A stretch of 64,000 bases of DNA from Candidatus Aminicenantes bacterium (GTDB taxonomy: Bacteria > Acidobacteriota > Aminicenantia > Aminicenantales > UBA8522): contig JBBILQ010000005.1 in the NCBI GenBank assembly GCA_037444845.1, positions 6,185-70,184 on the forward strand, given 5' to 3'. This document shows, one piece after another, positions 32,283 through 49,733 of this stretch. Numbering within the stretch: position 1 is the first letter of the stretch; each line of letters opens with the position of its first letter. Made by a program: the position numbers and the translations under genes. The notes beneath the pieces are model-generated. The model searched no databases and was not told where the DNA came from. It saw only the letters and a program-made list of their open reading frames with translations.

Positions 32283-34448
32283 ATGGCCATTCCAAGCAAA
32301 AAGGGGCCGCGCTTTGTCGGCGCCGTTATCATCCTGCTCATCATCCTCTTCTTTGCCATCGAGCTCTTTATCCGTGAATCACAGGAATTTTCCCCGACCT
32401 CAGTCACTGATGTCCTTCTTTCATCGCTCCAGATCATCGTCCTCCTGCTCTTCCTGATCTTCCTCCTCATCCTGGGCAGGTATCTCCTCAAGCTCAACCT
32501 GGAAAGAAAAAGAAAAGTCGCCGGTTCCCATTTCAAGACCAAGCTCGTCCTTTTCTTTATTTTCCTCTCCTTCATCCCGACGCTTCTCCTCTTTTTCTTT
32601 GCAAGCGACCTGATCAGCCGAAACATCGAGATGTGGTTCAAGACGCCTCTCGATAAGATCCTGGATGATGCCCAAGGCTTGGCCGAGGGCGTCTATGCCA
32701 GAGCAGAAGAAGAGGCCTACCATTACGCTCTTGAACTCGGCCGGGACATCAGGAATCAGAAGTTGATCCTTCTGGAGAACAGGCTGATCCTTCGTGAATT
32801 TATCCGGACCAAGTTGGCCGAATACCGCCTGGATGAGATCGGCATCTTCCTTGAAGAGGAAGAATTGTTCACCTATCTCAACCCAAACCTGCCGCTCCAA
32901 AACTACAAGTCCATCCAATCAGGGATGGTCCAGCGGGCTCAGGCCGGTGAGGTCTTCCGGACGATCGAGCCGATGGGAAACGGCGACATGATCCGCCGCG
33001 GCGTCAGCCTCTCCATTTCCGGCGCAGGTAAAGTTTTGGTGACGACGGGGAAATTTTTTCCCCAGAGCTACGCCCAGAAAATAAATGCCATCAACACCTA
33101 CGTCCAGAGATACCGCCTTTTCATCCCCCAGAAAGTCACGGTCAAGACGTTCTACGTGATCGTCCTGATGTTCGTGACCGTGGTGATTATTTTTGCCGCC
33201 AGCTGGATCGGCTTTCACCTGGCCAAGGGTATTACTGTGCCCATCGAAAAGCTGGCCTCGGCGACCAAGGAGGTTTCCCGCGGCAACCTGGATGTGCATG
33301 TCGAGGACCCCGCCTCTGATGAGCTGGGAACGCTCATTGACTCGTTCAACCAGATGATTTCCGACCTCAAGGGAAGCCAGGAGCATATCGCCCAAAAAAC
33401 CTCTGAGCTGGAAAACCGAAAGCAGTACATCGAGACGGTCCTGAACAACATCACCACCGGCGTCATCACTCTGGACGCTGGCGGAAATATCACGACCATC
33501 AACCCGTCGGCAAGGGAGATGCTGGCCCTGGAGGAACGACACCCTGTCGGCAAGAGCTTCCGGGATGTCCTCAGCAACCTCAGGTACAGCGAAATCGTTA
33601 AGAATATTGACTGGGGCCTGAGGAATAAATACAGGCTTTCTGATAAAGAAATCACCATCGTCTCAAACGGCCAGATAACGACCGTGGCCCTGGCGCTTTC
33701 CCCGCTCGAAGGATCGAACAGCGATTTTGCGGGAATGATCGTCGTGTTTGATAACCTCACCCAGCTCATCAAGGCCCAGAAAATAGCTGCCTGGAAAGAA
33801 GTCGCCCAGATGGTGGCCCATGAGATCAAAAACCCCTTGACTCCGATTCAGCTTTCAGCGGAAAGGATCATCAAAACCCTGAAGAAAAATGACGAGAATT
33901 CCCGGGCCGTGATAGAAGAGGGGGCGATGACGATCATCCAGGAGGCCCGGACGATCAAGTCTCTGGTGGATGAATTTTCCAACTTTGCCCGCCTGCCCAA
34001 GGTCGAGCCGAAGCCGGCCGACATGCGCAGCCTGATCGATCAGACGATCGCTCTTTTCCGCGGCATTTTCAGCCAGGTCGACTTCGAAATCGAGCATGGC
34101 CGGGACATCCCGCCCGCCCTGCAGCTTGATCCCGAGCAGATGAAAAGGGTCTTCATCAATATCATCGACAACGCCATCGAGGCGATGAACAAGAAAGGCA
34201 AGATCATCGTTCGCACGTCGCTTGAGAGAAAAGAGCAACGGGTGAAAGTCGAGATCGCCGACACGGGGCCGGGAATCTCCGCCGAGGACAAGGCCAAGCT
34301 CTTCTTGCCCTACTTTTCTACAAAGAAAAAGGGCACGGGGCTGGGGTTGGCCATCGTCAACCAGATTGTCAGAGAGCACAACGGCACGATCCAGGCTGAG
34401 AACAACGCGCCTACCGGTGCCAAGTTCATCATCTATCTCCCGGCATGA
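32283..34448 (+). CDS. NtrY-like sensor histidine kinase (multi-TM, HAMP, PAS, HisKA, HATPase)
   Basis: 721 aa. H-box MVAHEIKNPLTPIQLSAE; ATPase N/G boxes. It is followed by its cognate regulator. Confidence 0.75.
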   Translation: MAIPSKKGPRFVGAVIILLIILFFAIELFIRESQEFSPTSVTDVLLSSLQIIVLLLFLIFLLILGRYLLKLNLERKRKVAGSHFKTKLVLFFIFLSFIPTLLLFFFASDLISRNIEMWFKTPLDKILDDAQGLAEGVYARAEEEAYHYALELGRDIRNQKLILLENRLILREFIRTKLAEYRLDEIGIFLEEEELFTYLNPNLPLQNYKSIQSGMVQRAQAGEVFRTIEPMGNGDMIRRGVSLSISGAGKVLVTTGKFFPQSYAQKINAINTYVQRYRLFIPQKVTVKTFYVIVLMFVTVVIIFAASWIGFHLAKGITVPIEKLASATKEVSRGNLDVHVEDPASDELGTLIDSFNQMISDLKGSQEHIAQKTSELENRKQYIETVLNNITTGVITLDAGGNITTINPSAREMLALEERHPVGKSFRDVLSNLRYSEIVKNIDWGLRNKYRLSDKEITIVSNGQITTVALALSPLEGSNSDFAGMIVVFDNLTQLIKAQKIAAWKEVAQMVAHEIKNPLTPIQLSAERIIKTLKKNDENSRAVIEEGAMTIIQEARTIKSLVDEFSNFARLPKVEPKPADMRSLIDQTIALFRGIFSQVDFEIEHGRDIPPALQLDPEQMKRVFINIIDNAIEAMNKKGKIIVRTSLERKEQRVKVEIADTGPGISAEDKAKLFLPYFSTKKKGTGLGLAIVNQIVREHNGTIQAENNAPTGAKFIIYLPA

Positions 34449-35806
34449 GCAAAGAAACTATCCTTATCATCGACGACGAAGTCAGCATCCGGTCCTCCTT
34501 GAAAGGCATCCTGGAGGACGAGGGCTTCCGGGTGACAACCGTAGAAAGCGGAGAGGAAGGCCTGGAAGCGATCAGGAATCAGAACATCGACCTCGTCCTG
34601 CTGGATATCTGGTTGCCCAAGATGAACGGGGTGGACGTCTTAAAAAAAATTAAGACCATGGAAGAAACCCCTCCAGTGGTCATGATCTCAGGCCACGGCA
34701 CGATCGAGACGGCCGTGCGGGCCACCAAGCTCGGCGCCCACGATTTCCTCGAAAAGCCCCTCTCTCTCGAGAAAGTCGTCCTGACCGTGCGCAACGCCCT
34801 GAGGCAAAAAAAGCTCGAGGAGGAAAACATCCGGCTCCGCGAAAGGCTGAAGACGAAATACTACCTCATCGGTCACAGCCCTGCCATCCAGAGATTGAGA
34901 GAAGAGATCAAGCTGGCCGCTCTGTCCAACGGCCGCGTCCTTATCACCGGAGAAAACGGAACGGGCAAGGAACTTGTCGCCCGACTCATCCACCAGCAGA
35001 GCGCCCGTCGGGAGAAGAGGTTTGTTGAGGTCAACTGCTCGGCCGTCCCGGAGAATTTGATCGAGAGCGAGCTTTTCGGGTTCGTCCAAGGCGCCTTCGC
35101 CAACGCGCAAAAAGACAAGAAAGGAAAGCTGTTGCTGGCTGACGGCGGCACTCTTTTCCTGGACGAAGTCGGCGACTTGAGCGTGAAGGCGCAGGCTCAG
35201 CTCATCCGCGCCATCGAGGATCGAAGTTTTGAACCTGTGGGCTCGACGGAAGTCATTTCCTTCAACAGCCGGATCATCGCTGCAACGAGCAAGAGTCTGC
35301 GCGATCTTATTGCCAAGCGAAAGTTCCGTGAAGACTTGTTCTTTAAACTGAATGTCATCCCGTTGACCCTGCCGCCGCTGCGCGAGAGAGCCGGGGACAT
35401 CCCTCTCCTGATCGACCATTTCCTCAAGCACTTCTCTGAAGAGTACGGCCGGAAGCCGAAGTCCATGAGCCCGGAGGCGATGAACGCCTTTCTCAAGTAT
35501 GTCTGGCCTGGAAATGTGAGCGAGCTGATGAACGTCATCGAAAGGTTTGTCATCATGGTCCAAGAAGATGAGATTTCCGGCTCTCACCTTTCGCTCTTCG
35601 TCGAAACGAGAGAACTCGAATACATCTCCGGGTTCTTCGAGGGCCACTCTCTGGAAAAAGCCAAAGAGCAATTTGAAAAGCGGTTCATCCACGAAACACT
35701 GATGCGGAACAACTGGGAAATCCCAAGAGCCGCCTCTGACCTAAAAATCGACGAGCCCGCCCTGAGGGAGAAAATCAAGGCCTTGAACATAACGTTCGTC
35801 AGCTGA
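34445..35806 (+). CDS. NtrX/NtrC-family response regulator (REC, AAA+, Fis-type HTH) with a degenerate GAFTGA motif
   Basis: Receiver domain (DLVLLDIWLP), Walker A GENGTGKE, and a C-terminal HTH. The sigma54-contact motif reads ESELFGFVQGAFANAQ, not GAFTGA. Confidence 0.75.
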   Translation: MSKETILIIDDEVSIRSSLKGILEDEGFRVTTVESGEEGLEAIRNQNIDLVLLDIWLPKMNGVDVLKKIKTMEETPPVVMISGHGTIETAVRATKLGAHDFLEKPLSLEKVVLTVRNALRQKKLEEENIRLRERLKTKYYLIGHSPAIQRLREEIKLAALSNGRVLITGENGTGKELVARLIHQQSARREKRFVEVNCSAVPENLIESELFGFVQGAFANAQKDKKGKLLLADGGTLFLDEVGDLSVKAQAQLIRAIEDRSFEPVGSTEVISFNSRIIAATSKSLRDLIAKRKFREDLFFKLNVIPLTLPPLRERAGDIPLLIDHFLKHFSEEYGRKPKSMSPEAMNAFLKYVWPGNVSELMNVIERFVIMVQEDEISGSHLSLFVETRELEYISGFFEGHSLEKAKEQFEKRFIHETLMRNNWEIPRAASDLKIDEPALREKIKALNITFVS

Positions 35807-37420: not shown

Positions 37421-37502
37421 TTCGAGTCATTGTATAAAAAACGCACCCTGAGGGCAACTGGTTTTATCGCGTCTCTTAAGATCTTGTGATACAATAATTT
37501 TG

Positions 37503-39668
37503 ATGAAATCGTCGTCAAGGGAAGACTTCGGGCTGCCCGATGAAGTCAACTACAAGAAGCTGACTTCGAGGAACACGCTTGTCACCATCCTCCTGTTTGT
37601 GATCCCGTTTTTTCTTCTCTATCTCGCCGTCAACCACGAAGTCTCTTCTCTTATCAAAAGTCAAATCTACACCCACTTATCCGACACCGTCGCTGAGAAC
37701 ATCAAGACCATTGCCATTTTCCTCCAGGACAGGGAGACGGACCTCCGCTCCTTCTCCCATCTCAACATCGAAAAAATCGAGGAGGTCCAGAGTTTATCGC
37801 CGTTTCTGAAGACCCTGCTCAGCGAAAAAAAATGGTATGATTTCCTCATCGTCGCTGACCTTGAAGGCGACATTATCCTGTCCATCAACCGGGACATCTC
37901 TGGCAATATCGCCAACAGAAAGTACTTCCAGGTCTCCAGGGAAGGAAAATTTTTTAACTCTGGAGTTTTTTACTCGGACATTATTCAGTCGCCCGTCATG
38001 GTCCTTTCTCATCCCCTCCTCAACCAGGAGAATCGTATCATCGGAGTCCTGGCTGCTTCCGTCGACCTCAATAGCTTCTACGGCCTTCTTTTTGACCTCA
38101 GGATCGGCAAGACCAGCGAGCTCTTCCTCGTCGATAGCAGCGGGACGCTCCTCTCGCCGACAAAGCTTGGAGGAAGACTTCTTGCAGACAAGGGCTATTG
38201 GGAAAAGGAGGGCAATCCCCATCAAGGGGAACGCGGTGTCACGACGCACGTAGACTACCGCGGCCAGAAGGTCCTCTGCGCCTACGAGTTTCTGAGCCAG
38301 TTCAACTTCTTTCTCGTCTCGGAGATGGACCTCAAGGAAGCGCTGATCCTTCTCAGGGAGGTGAACAAGATCGTGCTCTTGCTTTTCATCCCGTTCTTTG
38401 TCCTTCTCATCGTCATTTCCAACCTTCACGCTCGCCGGACGACGTCTCTGGTCAAAAAATTGACCACGAACCTCAGGTCGGCGCTCGAGGAAGCCAGGGC
38501 TAAGAAAAAAGAGGTCGATGTGATGAACATTGAGCTGGAAAAGAGGGCCAAAGAAAGCGATCTCCTGGCCGAGGAATTGCGCCTTTCGGAAGAATACATC
38601 ACGAACCTCCTGGACAGCATTTCCCTGGGAGTCATCGGCCTCAATTCATCCGGAAAGATCACCCATCTCAATAAAGAGATCCGCGGTCTCTTCAACCTCC
38701 CTGATTTGAAGAAAGGACAGGATATTCTCAAAGCTCTGCCCTGGCTGAACGACAAGGATATCGAACTGGCCTTTGAGAACACGATCTTCAACGGCAGGCC
38801 CAACCGGGTCGAGAAAAGAAGGATCGACAGGGGAAAAGGAGACGAGTATTTCAACCTCTCATTCTTTCCTGTCGAGGACGGCCACGGCAAGATCCTCGGC
38901 GTGAGCATCCTCATCGAAAACGTCACCGAGCGGGAGAAACTCCACGGACAGCTCGCCGAATACGAAAAGCTCTCGGCCCTGAGCCAGCTGGCCCTCGGCG
39001 CCGCCCACGAGATCAACAACCCCCTCCTGGGCATATCCTCTTACCTCGAAATCCTCCGCGAGGGAGCCGGCGGAGAGAGAGACAAGCAGGAAATCGAGGT
39101 TGTCCTGGAGAATGTCTACAGAATCTCAGAGACGATCCGCGGTCTCCTTAATTTTGCCCGGCCCACTCCGCCCCAATTTACCAAGATTAACATCAACCAG
39201 CTCATAGCGGATACTCTGTCCTTCCTGAGTCATCAGCCTATCTTCAGGAACATAAAGATCGATAAAACCCTGCCTCCTTCCCTGCCTCAGGTCACGGCCG
39301 ACCCGAATCAAATCCGCCAGGTTTTGACGAACATGTTCATCAACGCAGCCCAGTCCATGCCGAAAGGCGGCGATCTCCGGGTGGAAACCTCCAAGGTCAA
39401 GTTCAAGGACCTCATCCAGGTTGACATCATCGACACGGGAATCGGTATCCCGCCGGATAACCTGAAAAAAATCTTCGACCCTTTTTTCACGACAAAAAAG
39501 AGCCAGGGAACAGGGCTCGGCTTGAGCATCAGCCTGAGTTATATCAAGAACCACTCCGGAGATATCTTTGTCCAGAGCGAGGTCAATAAAGGCACGGCAT
39601 TCTCTATCGTCCTGCCCATCCGGCAGAAAGGCAAAGCGTTGATGAAAGACGAGGAGATCATCTCGTGA
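37503..39668 (+). CDS. Sensor histidine kinase with a periplasmic Cache-like domain, PAS, HisKA and HATPase
   Basis: About 721 aa. Two TM segments flank a Cache-like sensor. H-box AAHEINNPLLGI; ATPase G-box. Confidence 0.75.
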   Translation: MKSSSREDFGLPDEVNYKKLTSRNTLVTILLFVIPFFLLYLAVNHEVSSLIKSQIYTHLSDTVAENIKTIAIFLQDRETDLRSFSHLNIEKIEEVQSLSPFLKTLLSEKKWYDFLIVADLEGDIILSINRDISGNIANRKYFQVSREGKFFNSGVFYSDIIQSPVMVLSHPLLNQENRIIGVLAASVDLNSFYGLLFDLRIGKTSELFLVDSSGTLLSPTKLGGRLLADKGYWEKEGNPHQGERGVTTHVDYRGQKVLCAYEFLSQFNFFLVSEMDLKEALILLREVNKIVLLLFIPFFVLLIVISNLHARRTTSLVKKLTTNLRSALEEARAKKKEVDVMNIELEKRAKESDLLAEELRLSEEYITNLLDSISLGVIGLNSSGKITHLNKEIRGLFNLPDLKKGQDILKALPWLNDKDIELAFENTIFNGRPNRVEKRRIDRGKGDEYFNLSFFPVEDGHGKILGVSILIENVTEREKLHGQLAEYEKLSALSQLALGAAHEINNPLLGISSYLEILREGAGGERDKQEIEVVLENVYRISETIRGLLNFARPTPPQFTKININQLIADTLSFLSHQPIFRNIKIDKTLPPSLPQVTADPNQIRQVLTNMFINAAQSMPKGGDLRVETSKVKFKDLIQVDIIDTGIGIPPDNLKKIFDPFFTTKKSQGTGLGLSISLSYIKNHSGDIFVQSEVNKGTAFSIVLPIRQKGKALMKDEEIIS

Positions 39669-41038
39669 GCCTGTATTCCATCCTGATCGTCGATGATGAG
39701 ATTCTCACCCTGAACAACCTGAAAAAGGTTTTGGAAAAAGAGAACTACGAAGTCCTGGTCACGAACTCGGGAGAAAAAGCCCTGGAGATGTTCGAAAAAT
39801 ATAAGCCTCAGCTCGTTCTCCTGGATCTGATGCTTCCGGGTATCTCGGGAATTGAAGTCCTCAAACGAATCAAAGAGCTGGAGAGAGAGACGATTGTCAT
39901 CATGATGAGCGCGTACGAGATCTTAGAGAAGGCTGTCGAGTCGATGAAATTGGGCGCCTACGATTATCTGCTGAAGCCGTTTAAGGTCAGCGACCTCAAG
40001 AACACCATTCGGAGGGCCCTCGAGACCCTTTCCTTGCGCATCCGCGTCCTGGAACATCTGGAATCAGAGAAAGGCCGTTATTATTTCGGGAAAATCATCG
40101 CTGAGAGCCGCGGGATGAAAGATGTCGTCCGGTTAGCCAAGAGGGTGGCGGCTTCAGATAAGACCACGGTTATTCTTCAGGGCGAAAGCGGAACAGGAAA
40201 AGAGCTCCTGGCCAAGGCCATTCACTACCACAGCCCGCGGGCCGAAAAACCGCTTGTGGAGATCAACTGCGCAGCGATCCCTGAAAACCTGTTAGAAAGC
40301 GAGCTCTTCGGGTACGAGGCCGGAGCCTTCACGGATGCCAGAAAAAGAAAAGCGGGTCTCCTGGAAAGAGGGGACGGTGGCACAGTTTTCTTCGATGAGA
40401 TTGGCGATATGTCGCTAAACCTCCAGGCCAAGCTGCTGCGCGTCCTGGAAGAAGAGACGTTTACACGCCTGGGAGGGGCGCAGCCGATCAAAGTCAACCT
40501 CCGGGTGATCGCCGCAACAAACCAGGATCTGGCCAAAGCAACAGAGAAAGGTCAATTCCGCTCCGACCTTTTCTACAGGCTGAACGTCGTGCCCATCGTC
40601 ATCCCGCCGCTCAGAGAAAGAAAAGAAGACATCCTTCCCCTGGCCCTCTCGCTCGTCCAGGAGCTCAACCAGGAACTGCGGCGCGCCTACAAGGGAATTA
40701 CCCAAGAAGCGGCTCAGGCCATGCTTTCTTATCCCTGGCCGGGTAATGTCAGAGAGCTCAGGAACATGATCGAAAGAATCATGTCTCTTTATGCGGAGGA
40801 AGAGGTTCAGTTCGTCCATTTTCCGGCTGAAATTCGGGATTATCGAGCTTTGCCGGAAAACAAAATCATCGAGAAAATCGCTCCCGGGGAATCGATGCCC
40901 ACTCTGGAAGAGCTCGAGAAGCTGTACATCGAAAAAGTCCTGGCCTCGACCGGCCGGAACAAATCTCATGCGGCCAGAATTCTGGGTATCCATCCGACGT
41001 CGCTTTTCAGAAAGCTGAAATCCTGGGAAACCCCCTGA
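39665..41038 (+). CDS. Sigma54-dependent response regulator (REC, AAA+, HTH)
   Basis: GTG start overlapping the kinase stop. Walker A GESGTGKE. GAFTGA-like motif ESELFGYEAGAFTDA with the Thr retained. Fis-type HTH at the C-terminus. Confidence 0.8.
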   Translation: MSLYSILIVDDEILTLNNLKKVLEKENYEVLVTNSGEKALEMFEKYKPQLVLLDLMLPGISGIEVLKRIKELERETIVIMMSAYEILEKAVESMKLGAYDYLLKPFKVSDLKNTIRRALETLSLRIRVLEHLESEKGRYYFGKIIAESRGMKDVVRLAKRVAASDKTTVILQGESGTGKELLAKAIHYHSPRAEKPLVEINCAAIPENLLESELFGYEAGAFTDARKRKAGLLERGDGGTVFFDEIGDMSLNLQAKLLRVLEEETFTRLGGAQPIKVNLRVIAATNQDLAKATEKGQFRSDLFYRLNVVPIVIPPLRERKEDILPLALSLVQELNQELRRAYKGITQEAAQAMLSYPWPGNVRELRNMIERIMSLYAEEEVQFVHFPAEIRDYRALPENKIIEKIAPGESMPTLEELEKLYIEKVLASTGRNKSHAARILGIHPTSLFRKLKSWETP

Positions 41039-41111
41039 CCCGCCTCTCGTATATCTGCTAATCCTTAAGCTCGGGCCAAGCGGCCGATGCCTGCCCCAAG
41101 CCAGAAGACCT

Positions 41112-41136
41112 TGCAAAATGCGTTAGTGCAAAATGC
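41112..41136 (+). promoter_or_regulatory. Putative enhancer (UAS): direct repeat TGCAAAATGC x2, 15 bp apart
   Basis: Repeats at 41112-41121 and 41127-41136, about 60-80 bp upstream of the -24/-12 element. Confidence 0.35.
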
Positions 41137-41190
41137 TATAATTCAGCGTCTAAAGATTTTTATTTTCTTTATTTTCAATAAGATAGAAAA

Positions 41191-41206
41191 TGGCATAAGG
41201 CTTGCA
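41191..41206 (+). promoter_or_regulatory. Sigma54 (-24/-12) promoter TGGCAT-N5-TTGCA
   Basis: TGGCATaaggcTTGCA matches TGGCAC-N5-TTGCW. It lies 34 nt upstream of the 41240 ATG, which has an AAAGGAGG ribosome-binding site, and immediately downstream of a sigma54-dependent regulator gene. Confidence 0.6.
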
Positions 41207-41239
41207 ATTCCTTGGGTGTGTTCATAAAGGAGGTTTGAC

Positions 41240-41500
41240 ATGAGCATTTATAACAAATCATCCGCTGCTATCAAAAAGAAAGAGGAGGATTCCCTCCTCG
41301 AAAATGAAGGCGGCCAGATGGCCGAGGTCATCCCTTTCCCTGATATCCAAAAGATAATCGCCAAAAAGCCCGGCCAGAAAAAGAAGGCCCGCCTGGAAGG
41401 GAAGTACCTTCATTATCGCGGCAAAAAAATCCCCATCCTCCAGTTCCAGAAATCCGGATACGACAAGCTCCTGAAGCTTCTTGTCAAAGAAATTGGCTGA
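41240..41500 (+). CDS. Hypothetical small Lys-rich protein (86 aa)
   Basis: Strong AAAGGAGG ribosome-binding site. No recognisable family. Confidence 0.5.
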   Translation: MSIYNKSSAAIKKKEEDSLLENEGGQMAEVIPFPDIQKIIAKKPGQKKKARLEGKYLHYRGKKIPILQFQKSGYDKLLKLLVKEIG

Positions 41501-41514
41501 GAAGAGGTAAGACG

Positions 41515-42819
41515 ATGGCCAAGAAAGAAGAAGCAAAAGTCCGGTACATCAGCCCCCTGCCCGAGCTGCGCGAGAAAGAGTACGACCCGTTTCTTGAAGC
41601 CACCCTGCAGTTCGAACGAGCAGCCACTTTTTTAGACCTGGACCACTGGATTTACCAGAGGCTCAAGTACCCGGAGCGAGAGCTCACCGTCCACTTAGCG
41701 ATCACACTTGATAACGGCCGAGCGGAAAGCTTCACGGGCTTTCGCGTCCAGCATTCCACTGTCCGCGGGCCGGCTAAAGGAGGCATCCGGTTCAGCCCGA
41801 ACGCATCGCTCAGCGAATGCAAGGCCCTTGCCACCTGGATGACCTGGAAATGCGCTGTCCTCGACCTTCCCTTCGGGGGCGGCAAAGGCGCGGTCATCTG
41901 CGACCCGCTCAAGATGTCGGAAAACGAGCTTAAGAAGCTGACCAAGGAGTACACCCTGGCTATCAGGGACATCATCGGGCCTTTTAAGGACATTCCAGCG
42001 CCGGATATGTTTACCAACGCCCAGACAATGGCCTGGATTGCCGACGCGTATGGCCAGGGGCAGGGATACCTGGAACCGGCGGTCGTCACCGGCAAGCCCG
42101 TCCACCTCTGGGGTTCTTTGGGGCGGGCCATGGCAACGGGCACAGGACTCTATTTCGTCCTCGAAGAAGCGGCCAAGCATCTCGATTTCCATCTTGAAGG
42201 AAAGAAGGTTGCTGTGCTCGGTTTCGGCAACGTCGGCTCTTCGATCGCCAAGCTCGTCCATCAAGCCGGCTGCACAATCATCGCCGTCACGGATATATTT
42301 GGAGGAATTCACAACGAGAAAGGCATCGACCCACTTGAGCTGGAAAAACAGGTTGCGCAAACGGGAAGCATCGTCAATTTCCCGGGGACAGAGCCGATCG
42401 ATAACGAAAGCTTGATTGCCCTGCCCTGCGACATCCTCATCCCCGCCGCCGTGGAAGGCCAGATCAACAGGGACAACGCGGACAGGGTGAAAGCCAGAAT
42501 CATCCTCGAAGGAGCAAACGGCCCGACGACCTTAGAGGCGGATGAGATCCTGAAAGATAAAAAAGTCCTCGTCGCGCCGGACATCCTGGCCAATGCCGGC
42601 GGAGTGACCGTCTCTTATCTTGAATGGGTCCAGAACCTTCAGAGGTATTTTTTCACAGAGGAGGAAGTCCGCGAAAAGACAGAAAAGAAGATGAAAAAGG
42701 CCTTCTGGGATGTCGTGGCCACGATGGAAAAATACGGCGTCACCATGAGGGAAGCAGCTTATATCCTGGCTGTAGGAAGGGTAGCGGAGTCCTTAACGGC
42801 CCTGGGAAGAGCCGCTTAG
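41515..42819 (+). CDS. gdh: Glutamate dehydrogenase (Glu/Leu/Phe/Val dehydrogenase family)
   Basis: 434 aa with the GGGKGAVICDP active-site Lys block and the GFGNVGS Rossmann motif. Confidence 0.9.
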   Translation: MAKKEEAKVRYISPLPELREKEYDPFLEATLQFERAATFLDLDHWIYQRLKYPERELTVHLAITLDNGRAESFTGFRVQHSTVRGPAKGGIRFSPNASLSECKALATWMTWKCAVLDLPFGGGKGAVICDPLKMSENELKKLTKEYTLAIRDIIGPFKDIPAPDMFTNAQTMAWIADAYGQGQGYLEPAVVTGKPVHLWGSLGRAMATGTGLYFVLEEAAKHLDFHLEGKKVAVLGFGNVGSSIAKLVHQAGCTIIAVTDIFGGIHNEKGIDPLELEKQVAQTGSIVNFPGTEPIDNESLIALPCDILIPAAVEGQINRDNADRVKARIILEGANGPTTLEADEILKDKKVLVAPDILANAGGVTVSYLEWVQNLQRYFFTEEEVREKTEKKMKKAFWDVVATMEKYGVTMREAAYILAVGRVAESLTALGRAA

Positions 42820-42924: not shown

Positions 42925-45702
42925 TTAGAAATTGATGTAGAAAGACACGACGAACCTTCTCGGACTGGCGTAGGAAGTAGGCCTGCCGAAATTGGGATTT
43001 TCTGTCTTTGGAGTATAAGGGTCCCATTTTTCTACATCAAAGTATTTAACCGGGTCAACGTAAAGGACAGCCTGGTTATTAAAGAGGTTCATTATCCTTG
43101 CCTCGATGACACCGTTAAGCCTTCCAAAGGGAATGCGGTGCGAAAGCTGAAGATCAAGGTTTGCCCAAGGCTCAACCCTCCTGCTTCCCGCTGGCTCTAA
43201 ATATGCTCTGTTCGCATACCACCAGCTTCTTCCCTGAGCCTGCCAGGGCGCGCCGCTCTGATACCTGAAATAGGCTCCGATGGCCGTTCTCTTCCAGAAT
43301 TCCCAGGTAAAGAACGTTTTAAAAACATGTGTTCTATCTCCCAAAAGGGTGCCTTCTCTGTTAGGGTCTGTCATGTAAAGCCCGGGGCAATCATCAAGGG
43401 CAGAGGAGGCATAGAACAGGGATTCAGCATAGTCGAGGTCCCAGTTGCCATAAAGCTTGCTCCAGGTATACATCATTAGGAATGACCATCTCTCGGCATA
43501 GGGCCTCTGCACCTGGAGCGTAAACGCCCTATACTTTCTGCGAGCCCAGGGGACATCGCTGTACACAAATCGGGAAGGAGCAGTCCATTTTCCGAAATTT
43601 ATCAGGGGATAATCCTCGATGACGTTCTTAACCGTTCTAAACTGATACCATAAGTCAACCACCCAGCTTTTTCCAAAAAGCGGCCGGCTGTATCCAAAGA
43701 CAGTTTCATCCTGGTAAGTCGGCTTTATTTCGGGAAGAATAACCTTTCCTGTCTCCGCCGCTGAGGGAATTTCTCTTACAGGTGCTCCAGTGACCTCAAA
43801 ATATGCATCGATGCTAAAAATTCTCTTGGGGGCCGCGGCACGGGCAATGCTTTTGTTATCAAGAGCGTAATACCGGCCGAAATTACCGTAGAGTTTATCC
43901 CCGACTTTCTTATCAAGTACCAAGGTAAAACCAAGCCTTGGCTGAACCTCATCCGCAAAATCGAAATAGAACTTCCTTGTCTCTTTGCCCTTGGTCGAAT
44001 CGGCCAGCCAGGCGTCTTTATCCACGAGGAAAGAAAAGGCATTCTCTCCAAAGGTCAGGTATTCATCCCTGTTTAGAAGAACGCCGAGGTTGAGAGTCAA
44101 CCTTTCTCCTATGGTCACTGTATCCTGGACAAAAATAGCGTAGGTCCTTCCGGCAGACTTCTGAGTTGAGCCCTCCGGAAGGTATCTTGCCCGGAATCCA
44201 GGTCTTGAGGCGCCCCCGACAAACGGCGCAATGTTAGAGAAGTAAGTAATAGAGCCCCATCCATTGGCCACTCTATCGAGATACTCGCCACCATGATCAA
44301 ACCCAAAGCCTGCCTTTATGACATGGGTATGGTACCTAAAATCAAGATACTGAGTAAAAACTATTTTGAGCTCGTCCCGGAAGAAATCCTGCGTGTTGAA
44401 CATAGAGGCCCCGCCGACAAAAAGACCAGTTGCCGGGGCACCAAACATGTATCCTGAGACAGTTGCGAAATAGCCCATTCTATCAAGCCTTGCGGGGTCA
44501 AAAGCGGGCTTGTAGCCAAGCTCCGTCACTGGAACATCCCTGTTTTTCTGATCAACATGGTCATACTTTAATTCCAGGTAGGAGTTGGGGTTAATCACCC
44601 ATGTCCAGGAAAAATAGTAGATCCGCTCCGTCCCTTTATAGTTTGTGGCTGTGGAGGGATGGTCATTAACTCCAATCCCCGCATTCTCCCCTTCCGTCGA
44701 ACTGCTTCTGAGACTGGCGACAAATTGATGCTTGCGATGGGGATTGGCGCTGAGCTTCAGGAAGAATTCGTTGGTAGGATATTTTGAGTCAGGAACAGGA
44801 CCCCATCTATTGACCCTCCCCGTTGTTTTTGAATAGGGCAGATTGCCCGAGAAATACCACCATAATTTGTCCTTGATAAGTGGGCCTCCCAACCCGAGGG
44901 ATGGCCGGCTTACATCGGTCTTGGTGACGATGGTCGGGTCCTTGAACTTGGCGTACCAGTCTGCTGGCTCATAGACAAACCTGAGTGAACCTGAGAGGTT
45001 ATTTGTCCCTGACCTGGTAATAGCGTTCGTGACCATGCCCACGGCTCTCCCGAATTCAGCCGAGACGGCCCCTCTCTTTATATTAATTTCCTGAATATCC
45101 AGTTCTGAGAAGCTCGAAAACAAATTAGCAAAGAATGGGTTGGTGACGTTAGAGCCATCGTAAAGGAATACGTTGTCTTGCTGATTCCCGCCGGCATTCA
45201 ACCTTCCTCCAGCCACCCCTGGAGCAAGGGCGATGAGGGAACCATAGGTCCTTCCGAGCGGCAGATTCTGAATGACTTTTGATTCAATACTGGTTGATAT
45301 TTCAGTAGATTTGACATCGACTAACGGAGAAGCGGCCGTTACCGTAACTTCCTCCTCAACCCTTCCTACAGGAACCATGATAGCTTCAACCTGGGTTTCC
45401 TTGTCGAGGGCGACGATGACTTCAAGAGACAGGTCGATCATTTCTTGATGGGTTAATTCCAGTGTGTATCTTCCGGGAAGGAGTCCAGCAAACCGGAACA
45501 AGCCATTATCAGTTGTGGTGTATTCTCTCCCCGCTGGAAGAAGCGCCCCGGATATTTTTGCCTTTGCCTTGGCCAAGGGCACACCCTCTATGCTCTTAGC
45601 AACTCCAGAAACAGACCCCCTGGTTCCAACTGCCTGAGAATAGGCAAAGGAACATATAATAACCACCATTAGAATTAGAATCAACGGCTCTAATTTTTTC
45701 AT
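42925..45702 (-). CDS. Oar-like TonB-dependent outer-membrane receptor with an N-terminal carboxypeptidase-regulatory-like domain
   Basis: 925 aa. Signal peptide, a CarbPepD_reg-like N-terminal domain, a long beta-barrel region, and a terminal ...SFYINF. Confidence 0.65.
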   Translation of the reverse strand: MKKLEPLILILMVVIICSFAYSQAVGTRGSVSGVAKSIEGVPLAKAKAKISGALLPAGREYTTTDNGLFRFAGLLPGRYTLELTHQEMIDLSLEVIVALDKETQVEAIMVPVGRVEEEVTVTAASPLVDVKSTEISTSIESKVIQNLPLGRTYGSLIALAPGVAGGRLNAGGNQQDNVFLYDGSNVTNPFFANLFSSFSELDIQEINIKRGAVSAEFGRAVGMVTNAITRSGTNNLSGSLRFVYEPADWYAKFKDPTIVTKTDVSRPSLGLGGPLIKDKLWWYFSGNLPYSKTTGRVNRWGPVPDSKYPTNEFFLKLSANPHRKHQFVASLRSSSTEGENAGIGVNDHPSTATNYKGTERIYYFSWTWVINPNSYLELKYDHVDQKNRDVPVTELGYKPAFDPARLDRMGYFATVSGYMFGAPATGLFVGGASMFNTQDFFRDELKIVFTQYLDFRYHTHVIKAGFGFDHGGEYLDRVANGWGSITYFSNIAPFVGGASRPGFRARYLPEGSTQKSAGRTYAIFVQDTVTIGERLTLNLGVLLNRDEYLTFGENAFSFLVDKDAWLADSTKGKETRKFYFDFADEVQPRLGFTLVLDKKVGDKLYGNFGRYYALDNKSIARAAAPKRIFSIDAYFEVTGAPVREIPSAAETGKVILPEIKPTYQDETVFGYSRPLFGKSWVVDLWYQFRTVKNVIEDYPLINFGKWTAPSRFVYSDVPWARRKYRAFTLQVQRPYAERWSFLMMYTWSKLYGNWDLDYAESLFYASSALDDCPGLYMTDPNREGTLLGDRTHVFKTFFTWEFWKRTAIGAYFRYQSGAPWQAQGRSWWYANRAYLEPAGSRRVEPWANLDLQLSHRIPFGRLNGVIEARIMNLFNNQAVLYVDPVKYFDVEKWDPYTPKTENPNFGRPTSYASPRRFVVSFYINF

Positions 45703-45980: not shown

Positions 45981-47552
45981 CTATTTGTCACAGAACTTGA
46001 GGGGCTTTCGACGGCGCAAGGAAAGGGCGGAAGGCGTCAACGCAATGCCTCCAAGAGAGGTGCAGCGAAGTTCAGGCGGAAGCATCTGGCCGACAGAGAA
46101 GACGGCATCGATTGTCTCGTCGAGGGGGATGGGATTCCTGTACCCTCCTATGATCATGTCTGCGCAGACAAAAGCGCCCGCTGCAGCCATCGCGTTTCGG
46201 GTATGGCAAGGGATTTCGCAAACTCCCTGAACGAGGTCGCAAACTGAGCCCATGGTGTTCTGCAGGGAAATAGCCGCTGCATCGCTTGCTTGCTCGGCTG
46301 TGCCACCTCCCGCTTCGACGACCGCAGCCGCGGCCATGGCTGCGGCAGATCCGACCTCTACCTGGCAGCCGGCGATTTCAGCGGCAAAAGTCGCCCGCCT
46401 GGCAATGATCAGGCCGACCGCTCCTGCAGCAAAAAGGCTCAATGCTATTCCATCGAGACTCAAGTCTTTCTCTTCGGCCAGAGTCGCCAAAACCGCCGGG
46501 ATGACTCCTGAAGAGGCGCCGGTTGGCGCAGCGCAGACGACTCCCCCGCTGTTGCTGACATGAAGGACGGCCAAGGCACGAGCCGCCGCCCTGGTGGCTG
46601 CGCCTCCCGCAGGTGTTTTTCCTTCTGCCTCAGCCCGTAAAATGGCCGCTGCCGAAGGCTCAAGATGCTTCATTTTCAGGCTCTCGCCCCGGAGGCCTTG
46701 ATGAATGGCAGAGCGCATGATTTCCCATCGCTGGAGCATCTCAGCTTTGGCGGCCTCTTCAGACATTCCCAGGAGCACCGACTCGTACTCCAGCGCGGCT
46801 CTGCCGAGTGAACAGCCGCGCCCGCGGGCCACCGAAATCATGTCCCCGGCTGTGGAAAATAAAGGCTCTCCCTGCTGAACATAGAAAATTGGGGGAACAG
46901 ACCAAAGTCTGCGCACTGGAGAAAAACGTCGCAGTCTGTTGAGAGCAGCGTCATTCCATCGTCTGCGGCACTGAACCTGCAGCAAGGTTAAATTTCTTCG
47001 GCTCTGCACCTCTGGCGACCCGATGTCTTCATTTTCATCCCTCAGGGCAGTCATGATACCAGGCTCGGCCCCGCGCTCTGACTCGATAAGCAAGACAAAA
47101 GATTTGCCCGTCAGGCGAACGTTCCAGTCCTCGAGCTCGTTGATAATGATCAGCCCTCCGCCAGTTGATTGGGCCCCAAGGCGCAACTTTTTCCCGGATT
47201 GCCCCGTCATCTCGATTTTGACAGCGTTGGGATGATCAGCTTTTTCTAACGGACTCACCCTGAATTCCATGGAAATCCCAGACCGAGAAGCAAACTCAAG
47301 GGCCAGGGGAAACCGGTCATCCGTTATCGGCCACTCCAGGAACCCTGCCGCAAACGCGAGGTCCCCTCCCTGCTCGCTGTAGGTCCTGGCATAAGAACCC
47401 CGGGGGTCAAAGGCGAGCCTTACCCAAGCGGGCTTTTCTCCAAGCAATAACCTGGCCATCCTGCCAACCCTGTAGGAGCCGGCTGTGTGGGAGCTGGAGG
47501 GCCCACGCATGACCGGTCCGATGACATCGTTAAAAATGCTGATGAATTCCAT
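45981..47552 (-). CDS. sdaA: L-serine dehydratase, Fe-S dependent, single-chain (beta and alpha domains fused)
   Basis: MEFISIFNDVIGPVMRGPSSSHTAG N-terminus and a Cys-containing alpha domain. ATG at 47552. Confidence 0.85.
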   Translation of the reverse strand: MEFISIFNDVIGPVMRGPSSSHTAGSYRVGRMARLLLGEKPAWVRLAFDPRGSYARTYSEQGGDLAFAAGFLEWPITDDRFPLALEFASRSGISMEFRVSPLEKADHPNAVKIEMTGQSGKKLRLGAQSTGGGLIIINELEDWNVRLTGKSFVLLIESERGAEPGIMTALRDENEDIGSPEVQSRRNLTLLQVQCRRRWNDAALNRLRRFSPVRRLWSVPPIFYVQQGEPLFSTAGDMISVARGRGCSLGRAALEYESVLLGMSEEAAKAEMLQRWEIMRSAIHQGLRGESLKMKHLEPSAAAILRAEAEGKTPAGGAATRAAARALAVLHVSNSGGVVCAAPTGASSGVIPAVLATLAEEKDLSLDGIALSLFAAGAVGLIIARRATFAAEIAGCQVEVGSAAAMAAAAVVEAGGGTAEQASDAAAISLQNTMGSVCDLVQGVCEIPCHTRNAMAAAGAFVCADMIIGGYRNPIPLDETIDAVFSVGQMLPPELRCTSLGGIALTPSALSLRRRKPLKFCDK

Positions 47553-47566
47553 GTGCGCCCTCATTC

Positions 47567-47842
47567 TCAAATCATCAAATCGCCGCCGTTGATGTCGATC
47601 GAGGCGCCGGTGATGTAAGCGGCTTTTTCCGAACAGAGGAAGACAACGAGGTCGCCGATTTCCTCCGGACGGCCCAGCCTTTTCACCGGAAAAGAGCGGA
47701 TAAACTCCCGGAGCTCATCGCTTGTCGTCGTGGCCCGGGCCATCTTCGTGTCGATCAGGCCGGGGCAGACGGCGTTGACGGTGATGCCATAGGCTGCGAC
47801 CTCTTTGGCCGCCGCCCGTGACGATGGACACTCGACCTTCAA
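47567..47842 (-). pseudogene. 5'-truncated remnant of a short-chain dehydrogenase/reductase (FabG-like) gene
   Basis: Only the C-terminal ~90 aa of an SDR is present (YGITVNAVCPGLIDT...ITGASIDINGG). The Rossmann N-terminus (~160 aa) is missing; only 79 bp separate it from the deoC stop. Confidence 0.65.
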
Positions 47843-47921
47843 GTTCTCTACTCTCCCTCTTCATGCTCAAACCTCCCTGATGGTTGCCCTGGTTGTCTTC
47901 TTCCCCTGCCTGCTCAAGGGT

Positions 47922-48605
47922 TTAGTGAGATGAAGCGCTCTCCTTCAGCTTTTCCAGAATGGCCACAGTAGCCGTGGCGCCGATGCGAGAACAGCCCAGT
48001 TTTTTAACTTCAATGGCCCTCTCCAGGGTCCGGATACCTCCGGCTGCTTTAAGCTTTATCGAAGGCTTGGTGTATTCTCTCATCAGCCTGAGATCATGGT
48101 CTGTAGCGCCGCCGCTTCCGAACCCGGTCGATGTCTTGACGTAATCGACGCCGACCTCGTCAGCGATCCTGCAGGCGGCGATCTTCTCCTCATCAGTAAG
48201 ATAGCAGTTCTCGAAGATAACCTTGACGATGACGCCTTTGGCATGGGCGGCCTTGGTGACAGCGTCAAGGTCTTTCTTGACATAAGCGCAATCCCCGGAT
48301 TTCAACTTGCCGATGTTCAGCACGATATCGAGCTCGACCGCTCCGTCCTCGATAGCTTTCTTCGCCTCAAAGACTTTCGTCGCTGTTGTCGTCGCCCCGT
48401 GAGGAAACCCGATGACCGTGCCAACCCGCACCGGGCTGTCCTTCAACAGCTCAGCAGCCCGCCGGACATCGCAGGGCCGGACGCAGACGCTCGCCACTCT
48501 GTATTCATGAGCCAGCCTGCAGCCTTCTTCAACCTCTCTTTCCGTCAGGGACGGCTTAAGCAGGGAATGGTCGATCATCCCGGCGATCTCTTCATGCGTC
48601 GCCAT
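47922..48605 (-). CDS. deoC: Deoxyribose-phosphate aldolase
   Basis: 227 aa TIM barrel with DHSLLKP and VDYVKTSTGF (Schiff-base Lys) motifs. Confidence 0.85.
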   Translation of the reverse strand: MATHEEIAGMIDHSLLKPSLTEREVEEGCRLAHEYRVASVCVRPCDVRRAAELLKDSPVRVGTVIGFPHGATTTATKVFEAKKAIEDGAVELDIVLNIGKLKSGDCAYVKKDLDAVTKAAHAKGVIVKVIFENCYLTDEEKIAACRIADEVGVDYVKTSTGFGSGGATDHDLRLMREYTKPSIKLKAAGGIRTLERAIEVKKLGCSRIGATATVAILEKLKESASSH

Positions 48606-49680: not shown

Positions 49681-49733
49681 TTTTTCTCATCCCCTTTCCA
49701 AGTCAAGAAAATCCGGATGTCGGTTATAGCTCG

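What the first reader, a model, noticed from the sequence alone, without database searches (positions are those of the whole stretch)
41112..41206. Near-consensus sigma54 promoter with direct-repeat UAS immediately downstream of a sigma54-dependent response regulator
TGGCAT-N5-TTGCA has the correct 5-nt spacing. It lies 34 nt upstream of a strongly ribosome-bound small ORF, which is followed by gdh. Two TGCAAAATGC repeats lie about 60-80 bp upstream, at enhancer-like distance.

This predicts that the Cache-domain kinase / bEBP pair (37503-41038) controls glutamate dehydrogenase through the enhancer.
Basis: seen in the sequence. Interest (0 to 1): 0.55.

Follow-up and report, generated by a model that had tools for sequence, protein, structure and literature searches.

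The report
Conserved sigma-54 promoter and enhancer for gdh
This is a real, deeply conserved sigma-54 promoter with its upstream enhancer, through which the neighbouring sensor kinase and activator pair most likely switches on a two-gene operon (an unknown small protein plus glutamate dehydrogenase) in uncultured Aminicenantes bacteria; it is a well-supported but ordinary kind of bacterial gene switch.

Summary
TGGCAT-N5-TTGCA lies at 41191-41206 and is the only such match in 64 kb. Two exact TGCAAAATGC copies lie at 41112-21 and 41127-36.

Comparison with 44 orthologous Aminicenantes genome loci and 4 metagenome loci shows HK-bEBP-small ORF-gdh synteny wherever the contig reaches far enough. 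All of them have the same intergenic layout at almost fixed, ungapped spacing:
- an enhancer of two (rarely three) GCA-N3-TGC dyad units exactly 15 bp apart, centred about -100 and -85;
- an AT-rich, IHF-like block at about -56 to -31;
- an invariant GG/GC -24/-12 element.

The flanking intergenic DNA is unconserved. The bEBP has REC, AAA+ and HTH_8 domains and an invariant GAFTDA loop, a variant of GAFTGA listed as compatible with activation.

- The "direct repeats" are dyad units that together form a roughly 28-bp palindrome.
- The operon's first gene is a conserved orphan 86-aa protein.
- The Cache sensor lacks the amino-acid-binding motif, so its signal is unknown.
- Sigma-54 control of gdh already has precedents (B. 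subtilis rocG/RocR; Geobacter), and the layout mirrors atoSC-atoDAEB.

This is a new member of a known kind. There is no experimental proof, and rpoN could not be checked.

The parts
37500..39668 (+). Sensor histidine kinase (722 aa from TTG 37500; ATG at 37503). It has an N-terminal TM-flanked dCache_1 domain, then PAS, HisKA and HATPase_c.
   Evidence: Pfam. The best NCBIfam match is AtoS at 295 bits, below the 646 cutoff. Orthologs are present in about 40 loci immediately upstream of the bEBP. The amino-acid motif of dCache_1AA is not met.
39665..41038 (+). Sigma-54-dependent response regulator (bEBP, 457 aa). It has REC, an AAA+ sigma-54 interaction domain with a GAFTDA loop, an AAA lid and a Fis-type HTH_8. 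Its start overlaps the kinase stop by 4 nt.
   Evidence: Pfam. The best NCBIfam match is AtoC at 434 bits, below the 714 cutoff. GAFTDA is invariant in 42/42 orthologs and the HTH is highly conserved. GAFTDA is listed among functional variants (PMC4641369).
41111..41140 (.). Enhancer (UAS). It consists of two TGCAAAATGC units (41112-21, 41127-36), each with a GCA-N3-TGC dyad core, 15 bp apart, centred about -100 and -85 from the predicted start. The whole element is dyad-symmetric.
   Evidence: The conserved block runs from -80 to -51 relative to the TGG, at 1.0-2.0 bits per column. Units lie at -78/-63 in most loci (28-29), one or two bp closer in nine, and are always 15 bp apart. The leave-out PWM scores 34.2 on + and 20.6 on -, and this is the only hit in the window.
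41134..41142 (+). TGCTATAAT, an extended -10 look-alike that overlaps the right flank of the enhancer. It is probably just the symmetric TATA flank of the dyad unit. A weak sigma-70 promoter occluded by the activator cannot be excluded.
   Evidence: Sequence. Relatives mostly have TGCTATAGT, and the left flank mirrors it (CTATAGCA...). The simple sigma-70 scan finds no -35/-10 pair here.
41159..41186 (+). Conserved AT-rich block between the enhancer and the promoter. It contains TTTATTTTC twice and TTTCAATAAGATA (41173-85). It is IHF-site-like or intrinsically bent DNA, and presumably helps DNA looping.
   Evidence: The conserved block runs from -30 to -5 relative to the TGG. The match to WATCAANNNNTTR has 2 mismatches in the window, 0 in 12 relatives and 1 in 21. 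The PWM hit of 28.8 is unique in the window.
41191..41206 (+). Sigma-54 (-24/-12) promoter TGGCATAAGGCTTGCA. The predicted transcript start is about 41216-41218.
   Evidence: T, GG and TGC columns are invariant (2.0 bits) across 40 non-redundant loci. The leave-out PWM scores 20.6; the next best in the window is 10.8.
41227..41233 (+). Shine-Dalgarno AAGGAGG, 6 nt before the ATG of the small ORF.
   Evidence: Sequence. GGAGG is present at the same place in nearly all relatives.
41240..41500 (+). First gene of the operon, a conserved, basic 86-aa protein of unknown function. It has a variable, disordered N-terminus and an invariant C-terminal KIPILQFQKSGYDKLLKLLVKEIG region.
   Evidence: It has 122 homologs, all about 76-113 aa, and the few that carry an organism name are Aminicenantes (one is labelled Clostridiales). 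Alignment A1 has 14 invariant columns. It is always directly upstream of gdh wherever the contig extends downstream. There is no Pfam or NCBIfam hit. AF2 gives pLDDT 66 with a beta-hairpin plus helices. There is no PDB fold match. Only 18 cluster representatives exist among 1.84 billion proteins, with no fusions.
41515..42819 (+). Glutamate dehydrogenase (434 aa), the second gene, starting 14 nt after the small ORF stop.
   Evidence: Pfam ELFV_dehydrog_N plus ELFV_dehydrog. The closest solved structures are the Thermococcus/Pyrococcus/Thermotoga enzymes and B. subtilis RocG/GudB, with E values of 1e-114 to 1e-133. It is 74-96% identical across the loci.

Best explanation
The 201-bp gap between the response-regulator gene and the small ORF holds a complete sigma-54 control region for a two-gene operon, an 86-aa protein followed by glutamate dehydrogenase.

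Proposed mechanism:
1. Sigma-54 RNA polymerase sits in a closed complex on TGGCAT-N5-TTGCA (41191-41206).
2. The Cache/PAS histidine kinase, on sensing a signal that is still unknown, phosphorylates the REC domain of the adjacent bEBP.
3. The activated bEBP oligomerises on the dyad-symmetric enhancer (two GCA-N3-TGC units 15 bp apart, 41111-41140, about -100 and -85).
4. The conserved AT-rich or IHF-like block (41159-41186) bends the DNA so that the AAA+ ring, through its GAFTDA loops, contacts sigma-54.
5. ATP hydrolysis opens the promoter. Transcription starts near 41217 and runs through the small ORF and gdh.

What is shown: the sequence elements, their uniqueness, their strict conservation and spacing, the gene order, and the domain content of the proteins.

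What is inferred: which protein binds the repeats, RpoN dependence, the start site, the role of the AT block, and the physiological signal and direction of GDH action.
For: - The promoter pattern is unique in 64 kb, with 0.08 expected by chance.
- The repeat is exact and occurs only here.
- Gene order HK-bEBP-small ORF-gdh is kept in every one of 45 genome loci as far as the contig reaches, despite protein divergence down to 42-55%.
- When loci are anchored on the promoter, the enhancer and the AT block line up without gaps. Motif columns carry 1-2 bits and flanks 0.1-0.3 bits.
- Enhancer units stay at -78/-63 (within 2 bp) with an invariant 15-bp spacing.
- Leave-out PWMs find only this site in the window and only orthologous sites in 456 kb of related DNA, apart from one unrelated promoter and two weak intragenic matches.
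- In a metagenome scan for the enhancer pattern, the only 4 of 120 loci with a sigma-54 promoter at the right distance were orthologous bEBP-small ORF-gdh loci.
- The bEBP has REC, the Sigma54_activat domain, the lid and HTH_8. Its GAFTDA loop is invariant and is regarded as a functional variant.
- No sigma-70-type -35/-10 pair and no + strand terminator lie in the gap.
- Precedents exist: rocG under SigL/RocR, Geobacter GDH is RpoN-dependent, and AtoC binds a palindromic UAS directly downstream of atoSC.
Against: - There is no experimental evidence of any kind.
- An rpoN gene could not be looked for in these genomes. None lies in the window or the fetched loci.
- The assignment of the enhancer to the adjacent bEBP rests on synteny only.
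- No terminator separates the bEBP gene from the operon, so read-through transcription could contribute.
- The window's copy of the IHF-like site has 2 mismatches, and AT-rich DNA matches that consensus easily.
- The 15-bp unit spacing (about 1.4 helical turns) does not obviously fit a simple two-dimer, same-face model, so the binding geometry is unresolved.
- The anchor used to align the promoters was chosen as the best consensus match, so the promoter PWM hits at anchors are partly circular. The ungapped alignment of the enhancer is independent of that choice.
Confidence: 0.8

Rival explanations
1. The promoter is sigma-54-dependent, but a different bEBP encoded elsewhere activates it (for example a nitrogen regulator of the NtrC type). 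In this reading the adjacent kinase/regulator pair is only a neighbour or controls other genes.
For: GCA/TGC half-sites are generic for NtrC-family HTH proteins. GDH is a nitrogen-metabolism enzyme. No binding data exist. A second NtrY/NtrX-like pair lies 5 kb upstream.
Against: The bEBP gene sits directly upstream of the enhancer in all ~42 loci that retain upstream sequence, across strongly diverged genomes. The enhancer-plus-promoter composite was found nowhere else. The NtrX-like protein has a degenerate GAFANA loop, and no UAS-like site lies near it.
Confidence: 0.08
2. The operon is mainly transcribed by sigma-70 polymerase. This would come either from read-through from the kinase/regulator genes or from the TGCTATAAT extended -10 look-alike (41134-42). 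The palindromic repeats would then act as an operator for repression rather than as an enhancer, or would serve both roles, as NtrC sites do at glnAp1/glnAp2.
For: TGCTATAAT is a perfect extended -10 sequence. TGCTATAGT or TGCTATAAT recurs in many relatives. There is no terminator after the bEBP gene.
Against: No -35/-10 pair passes the scan. The TATA flank is mirrored on the left side of the units, so it is explained by dyad symmetry. This reading does not explain the invariant GG-N10-GC element at fixed distance. Several relatives have TGCAAT or TGCGAG at that place.
Confidence: 0.07
3. The conserved blocks are not transcriptional signals for gdh. Instead they would belong to a small RNA or another structured element in the intergenic region.
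For: In Desulfovibrio many bEBPs drive small RNAs located just downstream of their genes.
Against: There is no Rfam match at E<=1. The promoter is followed within about 23 nt by a strong Shine-Dalgarno sequence and a conserved protein-coding ORF. No terminator follows the promoter on the + strand.
Confidence: 0.02

Closest known systems
E. coli atoSC - atoDAEB (AtoS kinase, AtoC bEBP, sigma-54 promoter with palindromic AtoC enhancer)
   Same: The layout matches: kinase gene, NtrC-family response-regulator gene, then, in the same direction, a sigma-54 promoter with a palindromic upstream enhancer driving a catabolic operon. AtoS and AtoC are the best NCBIfam matches of the two proteins.
   Different: Scores are far below the equivalog cutoffs (295 against 646 bits; 434 against 714 bits), so these are not AtoS/AtoC orthologs. 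The sensor here is a periplasmic dCache_1 domain. The enhancer is about 28-34 bp (two 9-10-bp dyad units 15 bp apart) rather than two inverted 20-bp sites. The target is gdh plus a small protein, not short-chain fatty acid genes.
Bacillus subtilis rocG (glutamate dehydrogenase) under SigL (sigma-54) and the bEBP RocR
   Same: A glutamate dehydrogenase of the same structural subfamily (RocG and GudB are among the closest solved structures) is transcribed from a sigma-54-type promoter activated by a dedicated bEBP.
   Different: RocR is a one-component, ornithine-binding activator without a REC domain or a partner kinase. From my own knowledge (Belitsky and Sonenshein 1999), the rocG enhancer lies downstream of the gene, whereas here it is upstream at about -100/-85. 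rocG is monocistronic, whereas here gdh follows a small ORF.
Geobacter sulfurreducens RpoN regulon (GDH gene GSU1305)
   Same: Glutamate dehydrogenase expression depends on RpoN.
   Different: That finding came from microarray data. No dedicated adjacent two-component system or enhancer was described in the passages read.
Enteric glnAp2 / NtrBC paradigm
   Same: The mechanism is the same: a phosphorylated NtrC-family regulator bound to dyad sites roughly 100 bp upstream activates a -24/-12 promoter by looping. The half-sites contain GCA/TGC. This rests on established knowledge.
   Different: The kinase here is a membrane Cache sensor, not cytoplasmic NtrB/PII. The site sequence and spacing differ (TGCA-N11-TGCA or GCA-N3-TGC units against TGCACC-N5-GGTGCA). 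A conserved AT or IHF-like block is present here.

Membership tests
Sigma-54 (-24/-12) promoter | GG and GC dinucleotides exactly one helical turn apart (GG-N10-GC) within TGGCAC-N5-TTGCW | tested here: met
   TGGCATAAGGCTTGCA at 41191-41206 has one deviation (T for C at position 6).
Sigma-54 (-24/-12) promoter | Intergenic position, on the same strand as and shortly upstream of a gene | tested here: met
   It lies 34 nt before ATG 41240, with AAGGAGG in between.
Sigma-54 (-24/-12) promoter | Conservation at orthologous positions | tested here: met
   The T, GG and TGC columns are invariant across 40 non-redundant loci. The element is present in 44/44 genome loci that include the region, and in 4 metagenome loci.
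Sigma-54 (-24/-12) promoter | The genome encodes RpoN, and transcription depends on it and starts about 12 nt after the GC | not testable with these tools
   No RpoN-box ORF lies in the window or the loci. No transcript data are available.
Bacterial enhancer-binding protein (NtrC-family response regulator) | REC domain, AAA+ sigma-54 interaction domain and C-terminal Fis-type HTH | tested here: met
   Response_reg 1e-30, Sigma54_activat 1.9e-69, AAA_lid_14 and HTH_8 4.9e-12.
Bacterial enhancer-binding protein (NtrC-family response regulator) | GAFTGA sigma-54 contact loop | tested here: met
   The loop is the variant GAFTDA, invariant in 42/42 orthologs. It is listed among variants expected to keep activity (PMC4641369). 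Activity itself was not tested.
AtoS/AtoC equivalogs | Score above the NCBIfam equivalog cutoff | tested here: not met
   AtoS scores 295.3 against a cutoff of 646, and AtoC 433.6 against 714.
bEBP enhancer (UAS) | Two or more dyad-symmetric sites roughly 80-150 bp upstream of the start, conserved with the promoter | tested here: met
   Two GCA-N3-TGC units lie at about -100 and -85. They score on both strands (34.2 and 20.6 bits), and position and 15-bp spacing are fixed.
bEBP enhancer (UAS) | Bound by the cognate activator | not testable with these tools
   Only synteny supports the assignment.
IHF binding site | WATCAANNNNTTR with an AT-rich 5' flank, between the UAS and the promoter | tested here: inconclusive
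   The window copy TTTCAATAAGATA has 2 mismatches. Twelve relatives have 0 and 21 have 1, on either strand at two positions. AT-rich DNA matches this consensus easily.
dCache_1AA amino-acid sensor domain | AA_motif Y121-R126-W128-(Y129)...Y144...D173 (PctA numbering; PMC8915833) | tested here: not met
   R is kept. Y121 is G, W128 is Y (invariant) and Y144 is variable. D173 is N in 23/36 orthologs, a change reported to abolish binding in PctA.
RocR/rocG system | One-component PAS-type activator, with the enhancer downstream of a monocistronic gdh | tested here: not met
   The regulator here has a REC domain and a partner kinase, the enhancer is upstream, and gdh is the second gene.

The most novel reading that the evidence does not exclude
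The most novel reading is that the 86-aa orphan protein is a previously unknown partner of glutamate dehydrogenase, such as a regulatory or assembly subunit, or a feedback modulator of the two-component system. This protein is always the first gene behind this promoter and lies 8-25 nt upstream of gdh throughout the Aminicenantia. A further possibility is that the non-amino-acid Cache sensor recognises a new signal that gates amino-acid catabolism in this uncultured lineage.
Probability: 0.25. Interest if true: 0.5.

Novelty: new member of a known kind. Interest (0 to 1): 0.3.

Why it matters
The finding gives a precise, testable regulatory circuit in a lineage with no cultured, genetically tractable members: a membrane sensor, a bEBP, and sigma-54-dependent gdh. 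Glutamate dehydrogenase is the gateway between amino-acid and central carbon metabolism. The enhancer consensus, its fixed phasing and the GAFTDA activator could be reconstituted in E. coli to find the signal. The obligatory small protein in front of gdh is a new orphan family whose function could be tested biochemically. As a mechanism it adds nothing new to sigma-54 biology.

Tried and rejected
- **Amino-acid sensing by the Cache domain.** The published AA_motif is not conserved: W128 is Y, Y121 is G and D173 is N in most orthologs. I rejected it as a basis for naming the signal.
- **Function of the small protein.** It has no Pfam or NCBIfam hit. The AF2 model is only moderately confident, at pLDDT 66. 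Foldseek against the PDB gave nothing below E=5. An exhaustive profile search found only 18 short relatives and no fusions.
- **Wider regulon.** PWM scans of the window and the 45 loci and one metagenome scan for the enhancer pattern found the composite only at orthologous gdh loci.
- **Alternative sigma-70 promoter or terminator in the gap.** The scan found none. The TGCTATAAT look-alike is explained by enhancer symmetry.
- **Structured RNA.** There is no Rfam match.
- **rpoN.** No RpoN-box ORF lies in the window or the loci, and no literature links Aminicenantes to sigma-54.
- **AtoSC orthology.** The scores are below the cutoffs.
- **Same-type enhancer upstream of the second sigma-54 promoter in L012.** None was seen.

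Full report

Yes. The + strand reads ...aaaaTGGCATAAGGCTTGCAattcc..., with TGGCAT at 41191-96 and TTGCA at 41202-06. GG (41192-93) and GC (41204-05) are 12 bp apart start to start, which is the canonical -24/-12 geometry. The pattern TGGCAY-N5-TTGCW occurs once in the 64-kb window on both strands, against 0.08 expected from shuffles.

TGCAAAATGC occurs exactly twice, at 41112-21 and 41127-36, 15 bp start to start. The only other site within one mismatch is at 9301.

The small ORF starts at 41240 behind AAGGAGG (41227-33) and ends at 41500. A 434-aa ELFV-family glutamate dehydrogenase follows at 41515-42819. Upstream lie a dCache_1-PAS-HisKA-HATPase kinase (37500-39668) and a REC-Sigma54_activat-AAA_lid-HTH_8 regulator (39665-41038), whose start overlaps the kinase stop.

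**2. Where the sequence comes from, and its relatives**

The 86-aa protein has 122 homologs of about 76-113 aa. The few that carry an organism name are called Aminicenantes. A genome-collection scan with its alignment (A1) returned 45 loci, mostly labelled Aminicenantes, Aminicenantales or Saccharicenans.

A tblastn search of the window's proteins against these loci shows the order kinase, bEBP, small ORF, gdh in every locus as far as the contig extends; about 35 loci carry all four genes. Identities fall to 55% for the kinase, 68% for the bEBP, 42% for the small protein and 74% for GDH. The flanking genes (RecO, UbiA, an outer-membrane barrel protein) are only partly conserved.

**3. Phylogenetic footprint**

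I extracted the gap between the bEBP stop and the small ORF in each locus and anchored on the best -24/-12 match. The upstream 110 bp then line up without any gaps. Column information content (40 non-redundant sequences) shows three blocks against a background of 0.1-0.3 bits:
- **(a)** -80 to -51 relative to the T of TGGCAC (window 41111-41140), consensus TtgCaaatTgcaatat.gCaAAATgctAta, 1.0-2.0 bits;
- **(b)** -30 to -5 (41161-41186), an AT-rich block, consensus TaatttatTtatttT.aA.aA.tTa;
- **(c)** TGGCAc...aTTGCatT, with the T, GG and TGC columns invariant at 2.0 bits.

The GCA-N3-TGC cores sit at -78/-63 in most loci (28-29), at -77/-62 in 8 and at -76/-61 in 1. They are always 15 bp apart. 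Two loci add a third unit at -47.

Position-weight matrices built without the window and its closest relative hit only this site in the window. The promoter scores 20.6 bits (next best 10.8), the enhancer 34.2 bits on + and 20.6 on -, and the AT block 28.8.

In 456 kb of related loci the promoter PWM hits the orthologous position in all 44 loci that include the region. The only other hits are one clear extra site (L012:3089, in front of an outer-membrane-protein-like gene) and two weak minus-strand matches (14-15 bits) inside gdh coding sequence.

The choice of anchor is partly circular for the promoter. It is not circular for the ungapped register of the enhancer and the AT block.

**4.

The two "direct repeats" are each a small dyad (GCA-N3-TGC, with TGCA self-complementary). 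Together they form a larger dyad-symmetric element. In several relatives it is a perfect palindrome, for example L045 TTGCAATTTGCAATATTGCAAATTGCAA, and the PWM scores on both strands.

With the start predicted at about 41217, the units are centred near -100 and -85 and the AT block spans about -56 to -31. The AT block resembles the IHF consensus WATCAANNNNTTR, with 0 mismatches in 12 loci and 1 in 21. The window's copy, TTTCAATAAGATA, has 2 mismatches, and AT-rich DNA matches this consensus easily. I therefore treat "IHF site or intrinsic bend" as inference.

TGCTATAAT (41134-42) looks like an extended -10 element. It is mirrored on the left flank of the units in relatives (CTATAGCA...TGCTATAG), so enhancer symmetry explains it. 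The sigma-70 scan finds no -35/-10 pair and no + strand terminator in the gap. No Rfam family matches.

**5. The proteins**

*The bEBP.* It carries GAFTDA rather than GAFTGA. This is invariant in all 42 orthologs, as is most of the HTH. A study of Desulfovibrio vulgaris EBPs lists GAFTDA among variants expected to keep activating ability (PMC4641369). The best NCBIfam matches are AtoS and AtoC, but far below the equivalog cutoffs, so the pair is AtoSC-like and not orthologous.

*The Cache domain.* I tested it against the published amino-acid-binding motif (PMC8915833). R126 is kept, but Y121 is G, W128 is an invariant Y, Y144 varies, and D173 is N in 23 of 36 orthologs. That paper reports that the D173N change abolishes binding in PctA. 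The signal is therefore unknown, and the attractive idea of "amino acid sensed, gdh induced" is not supported.

*GDH.* It is closest to the Thermococcus/Pyrococcus/Thermotoga enzymes and to B. subtilis RocG/GudB. Its cofactor preference and physiological direction were not determined.

*The small protein.* It is a genuine conserved gene with 14 invariant columns, mostly C-terminal, but it is an orphan:
- no Pfam or NCBIfam family;
- an AF2 model of pLDDT 66, with a disordered N-terminus and a beta-hairpin plus two helices;
- no fold match in the PDB;
- only 18 cluster representatives in 1.84 billion proteins, all 41-90 aa and none fused to another domain.

**6. Mechanism**

This is the best-supported reading, with confidence about 0.8. 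Sigma-54 polymerase occupies 41191-41206. The kinase phosphorylates the adjacent bEBP in response to an unknown periplasmic or PAS-sensed signal. The bEBP assembles on the dyad enhancer, and the AT block helps looping. ATP hydrolysis opens the promoter, and one transcript from about 41217 encodes the small protein and GDH.

The elements, their conservation and phasing, the synteny and the domain content are shown. Binding, RpoN dependence, the start site and the physiology are inferred.

**7. Rivals**

- A different bEBP acts here (0.08). Universal adjacency and the uniqueness of the composite argue against it.
- Sigma-70 or read-through transcription dominates, with the palindrome acting as an operator (0.07). 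This does not explain the invariant GG-N10-GC.
- The elements belong to a small RNA (0.02). The immediate Shine-Dalgarno sequence and conserved ORF contradict it.

**8. Comparison with what is known**

The mechanism and layout match the classical NtrC-family paradigm. They are closest to atoSC-atoDAEB, where AtoC binds a palindromic site upstream of a sigma-54 promoter directly downstream of atoSC (PMC3118216).

Sigma-54 control of a glutamate dehydrogenase is also known. B. subtilis rocG needs SigL and the bEBP RocR (PMC10404663), and Geobacter GDH is RpoN-dependent (PMC2725144).

The differences here are a Cache-type membrane kinase, the specific enhancer sequence with 15-bp unit spacing, the GAFTDA loop, and the orphan first gene. 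No paper in the searchable library links Aminicenantes to sigma-54.

**9. Regulon**

Only 4 had a sigma-54 promoter at the expected +78 offset, and all 4 are orthologous bEBP-small ORF-gdh loci. No extra targets were seen, but this test is weak.

**10. Verdict**

It is a new member of a known kind: a solid regulatory prediction for an uncultured lineage, not a surprise for sigma-54 specialists. The most novel element is the obligatory orphan small protein ahead of gdh. Interest is 0.3.

Noticed in passing
window 41240-41500: An orphan 86-aa basic protein family is always encoded 8-25 nt upstream of gdh in Aminicenantes. It has an invariant C-terminal PILQFQKSGYDKLLKLLVKEI region, no known domain, no fold match and no fusions. 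It could be a GDH partner.
   Followed up: partly
window 32283-35806: A second kinase/regulator pair lies 5 kb upstream, on the same strand and separated by recO and a UbiA-family gene. The pair is NtrY-like (NtrY_N-HAMP-PAS-HisKA) and NtrX-like. The regulator has a degenerate GAFANA loop instead of GAFTGA, so it may not contact sigma-54. The tail of this gene is also conserved upstream of recO in several relatives.
   Followed up: partly
L012 3084-3103: A second strong sigma-54 promoter match (TTTGGCATGTATCTTGCTAT, 22 bits) lies downstream of gdh, in front of a + strand outer-membrane barrel-like gene. No GCA-N3-TGC enhancer is visible upstream of it. In the window the corresponding barrel gene (42925-45702) is on the opposite strand, convergent with gdh.
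   Followed up: partly
window 37487-37505: TGATACAAT (an extended -10-like sequence) ends only 7 nt before ATG 37503 of the kinase gene, and there is no Shine-Dalgarno sequence. The kinase/regulator operon may be transcribed as a leaderless or nearly leaderless mRNA.
   Followed up: no
window 41816-41835 (- strand): A weak sigma-54-like match (GGTGGCAAGGGCCTTGCATT, 10.8 bits) lies inside gdh on the antisense strand. It is also seen in L011 and L023. It most likely reflects conserved coding sequence rather than a promoter.
   Followed up: no
L002, L003, L004 and many other loci (record titles): The closest relatives of the window (up to 96% protein identity) are deposited as 'Clostridiales bacterium' or 'uncultured Eubacteriales bacterium'. 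Their gene content and the small-protein family place them with the Aminicenantes. These are probably placeholder or wrong taxonomic labels.
   Followed up: no
window 45981-51215 (- strand): The genes downstream of the barrel protein encode a serine dehydratase alpha-chain protein, a DeoC/LacD aldolase, a zinc alcohol dehydrogenase and a fucose-isomerase-like protein. The neighbourhood mixes amino-acid and sugar catabolism.
   Followed up: no
window 41159-41176: A tandem TTTATTTTC repeat (two copies) and an imperfect inverted repeat, ATTTTCTTTATT/AAGATAGAAAAT, lie inside the AT-rich block between the enhancer and the promoter. They may contribute to intrinsic curvature.
   Followed up: no
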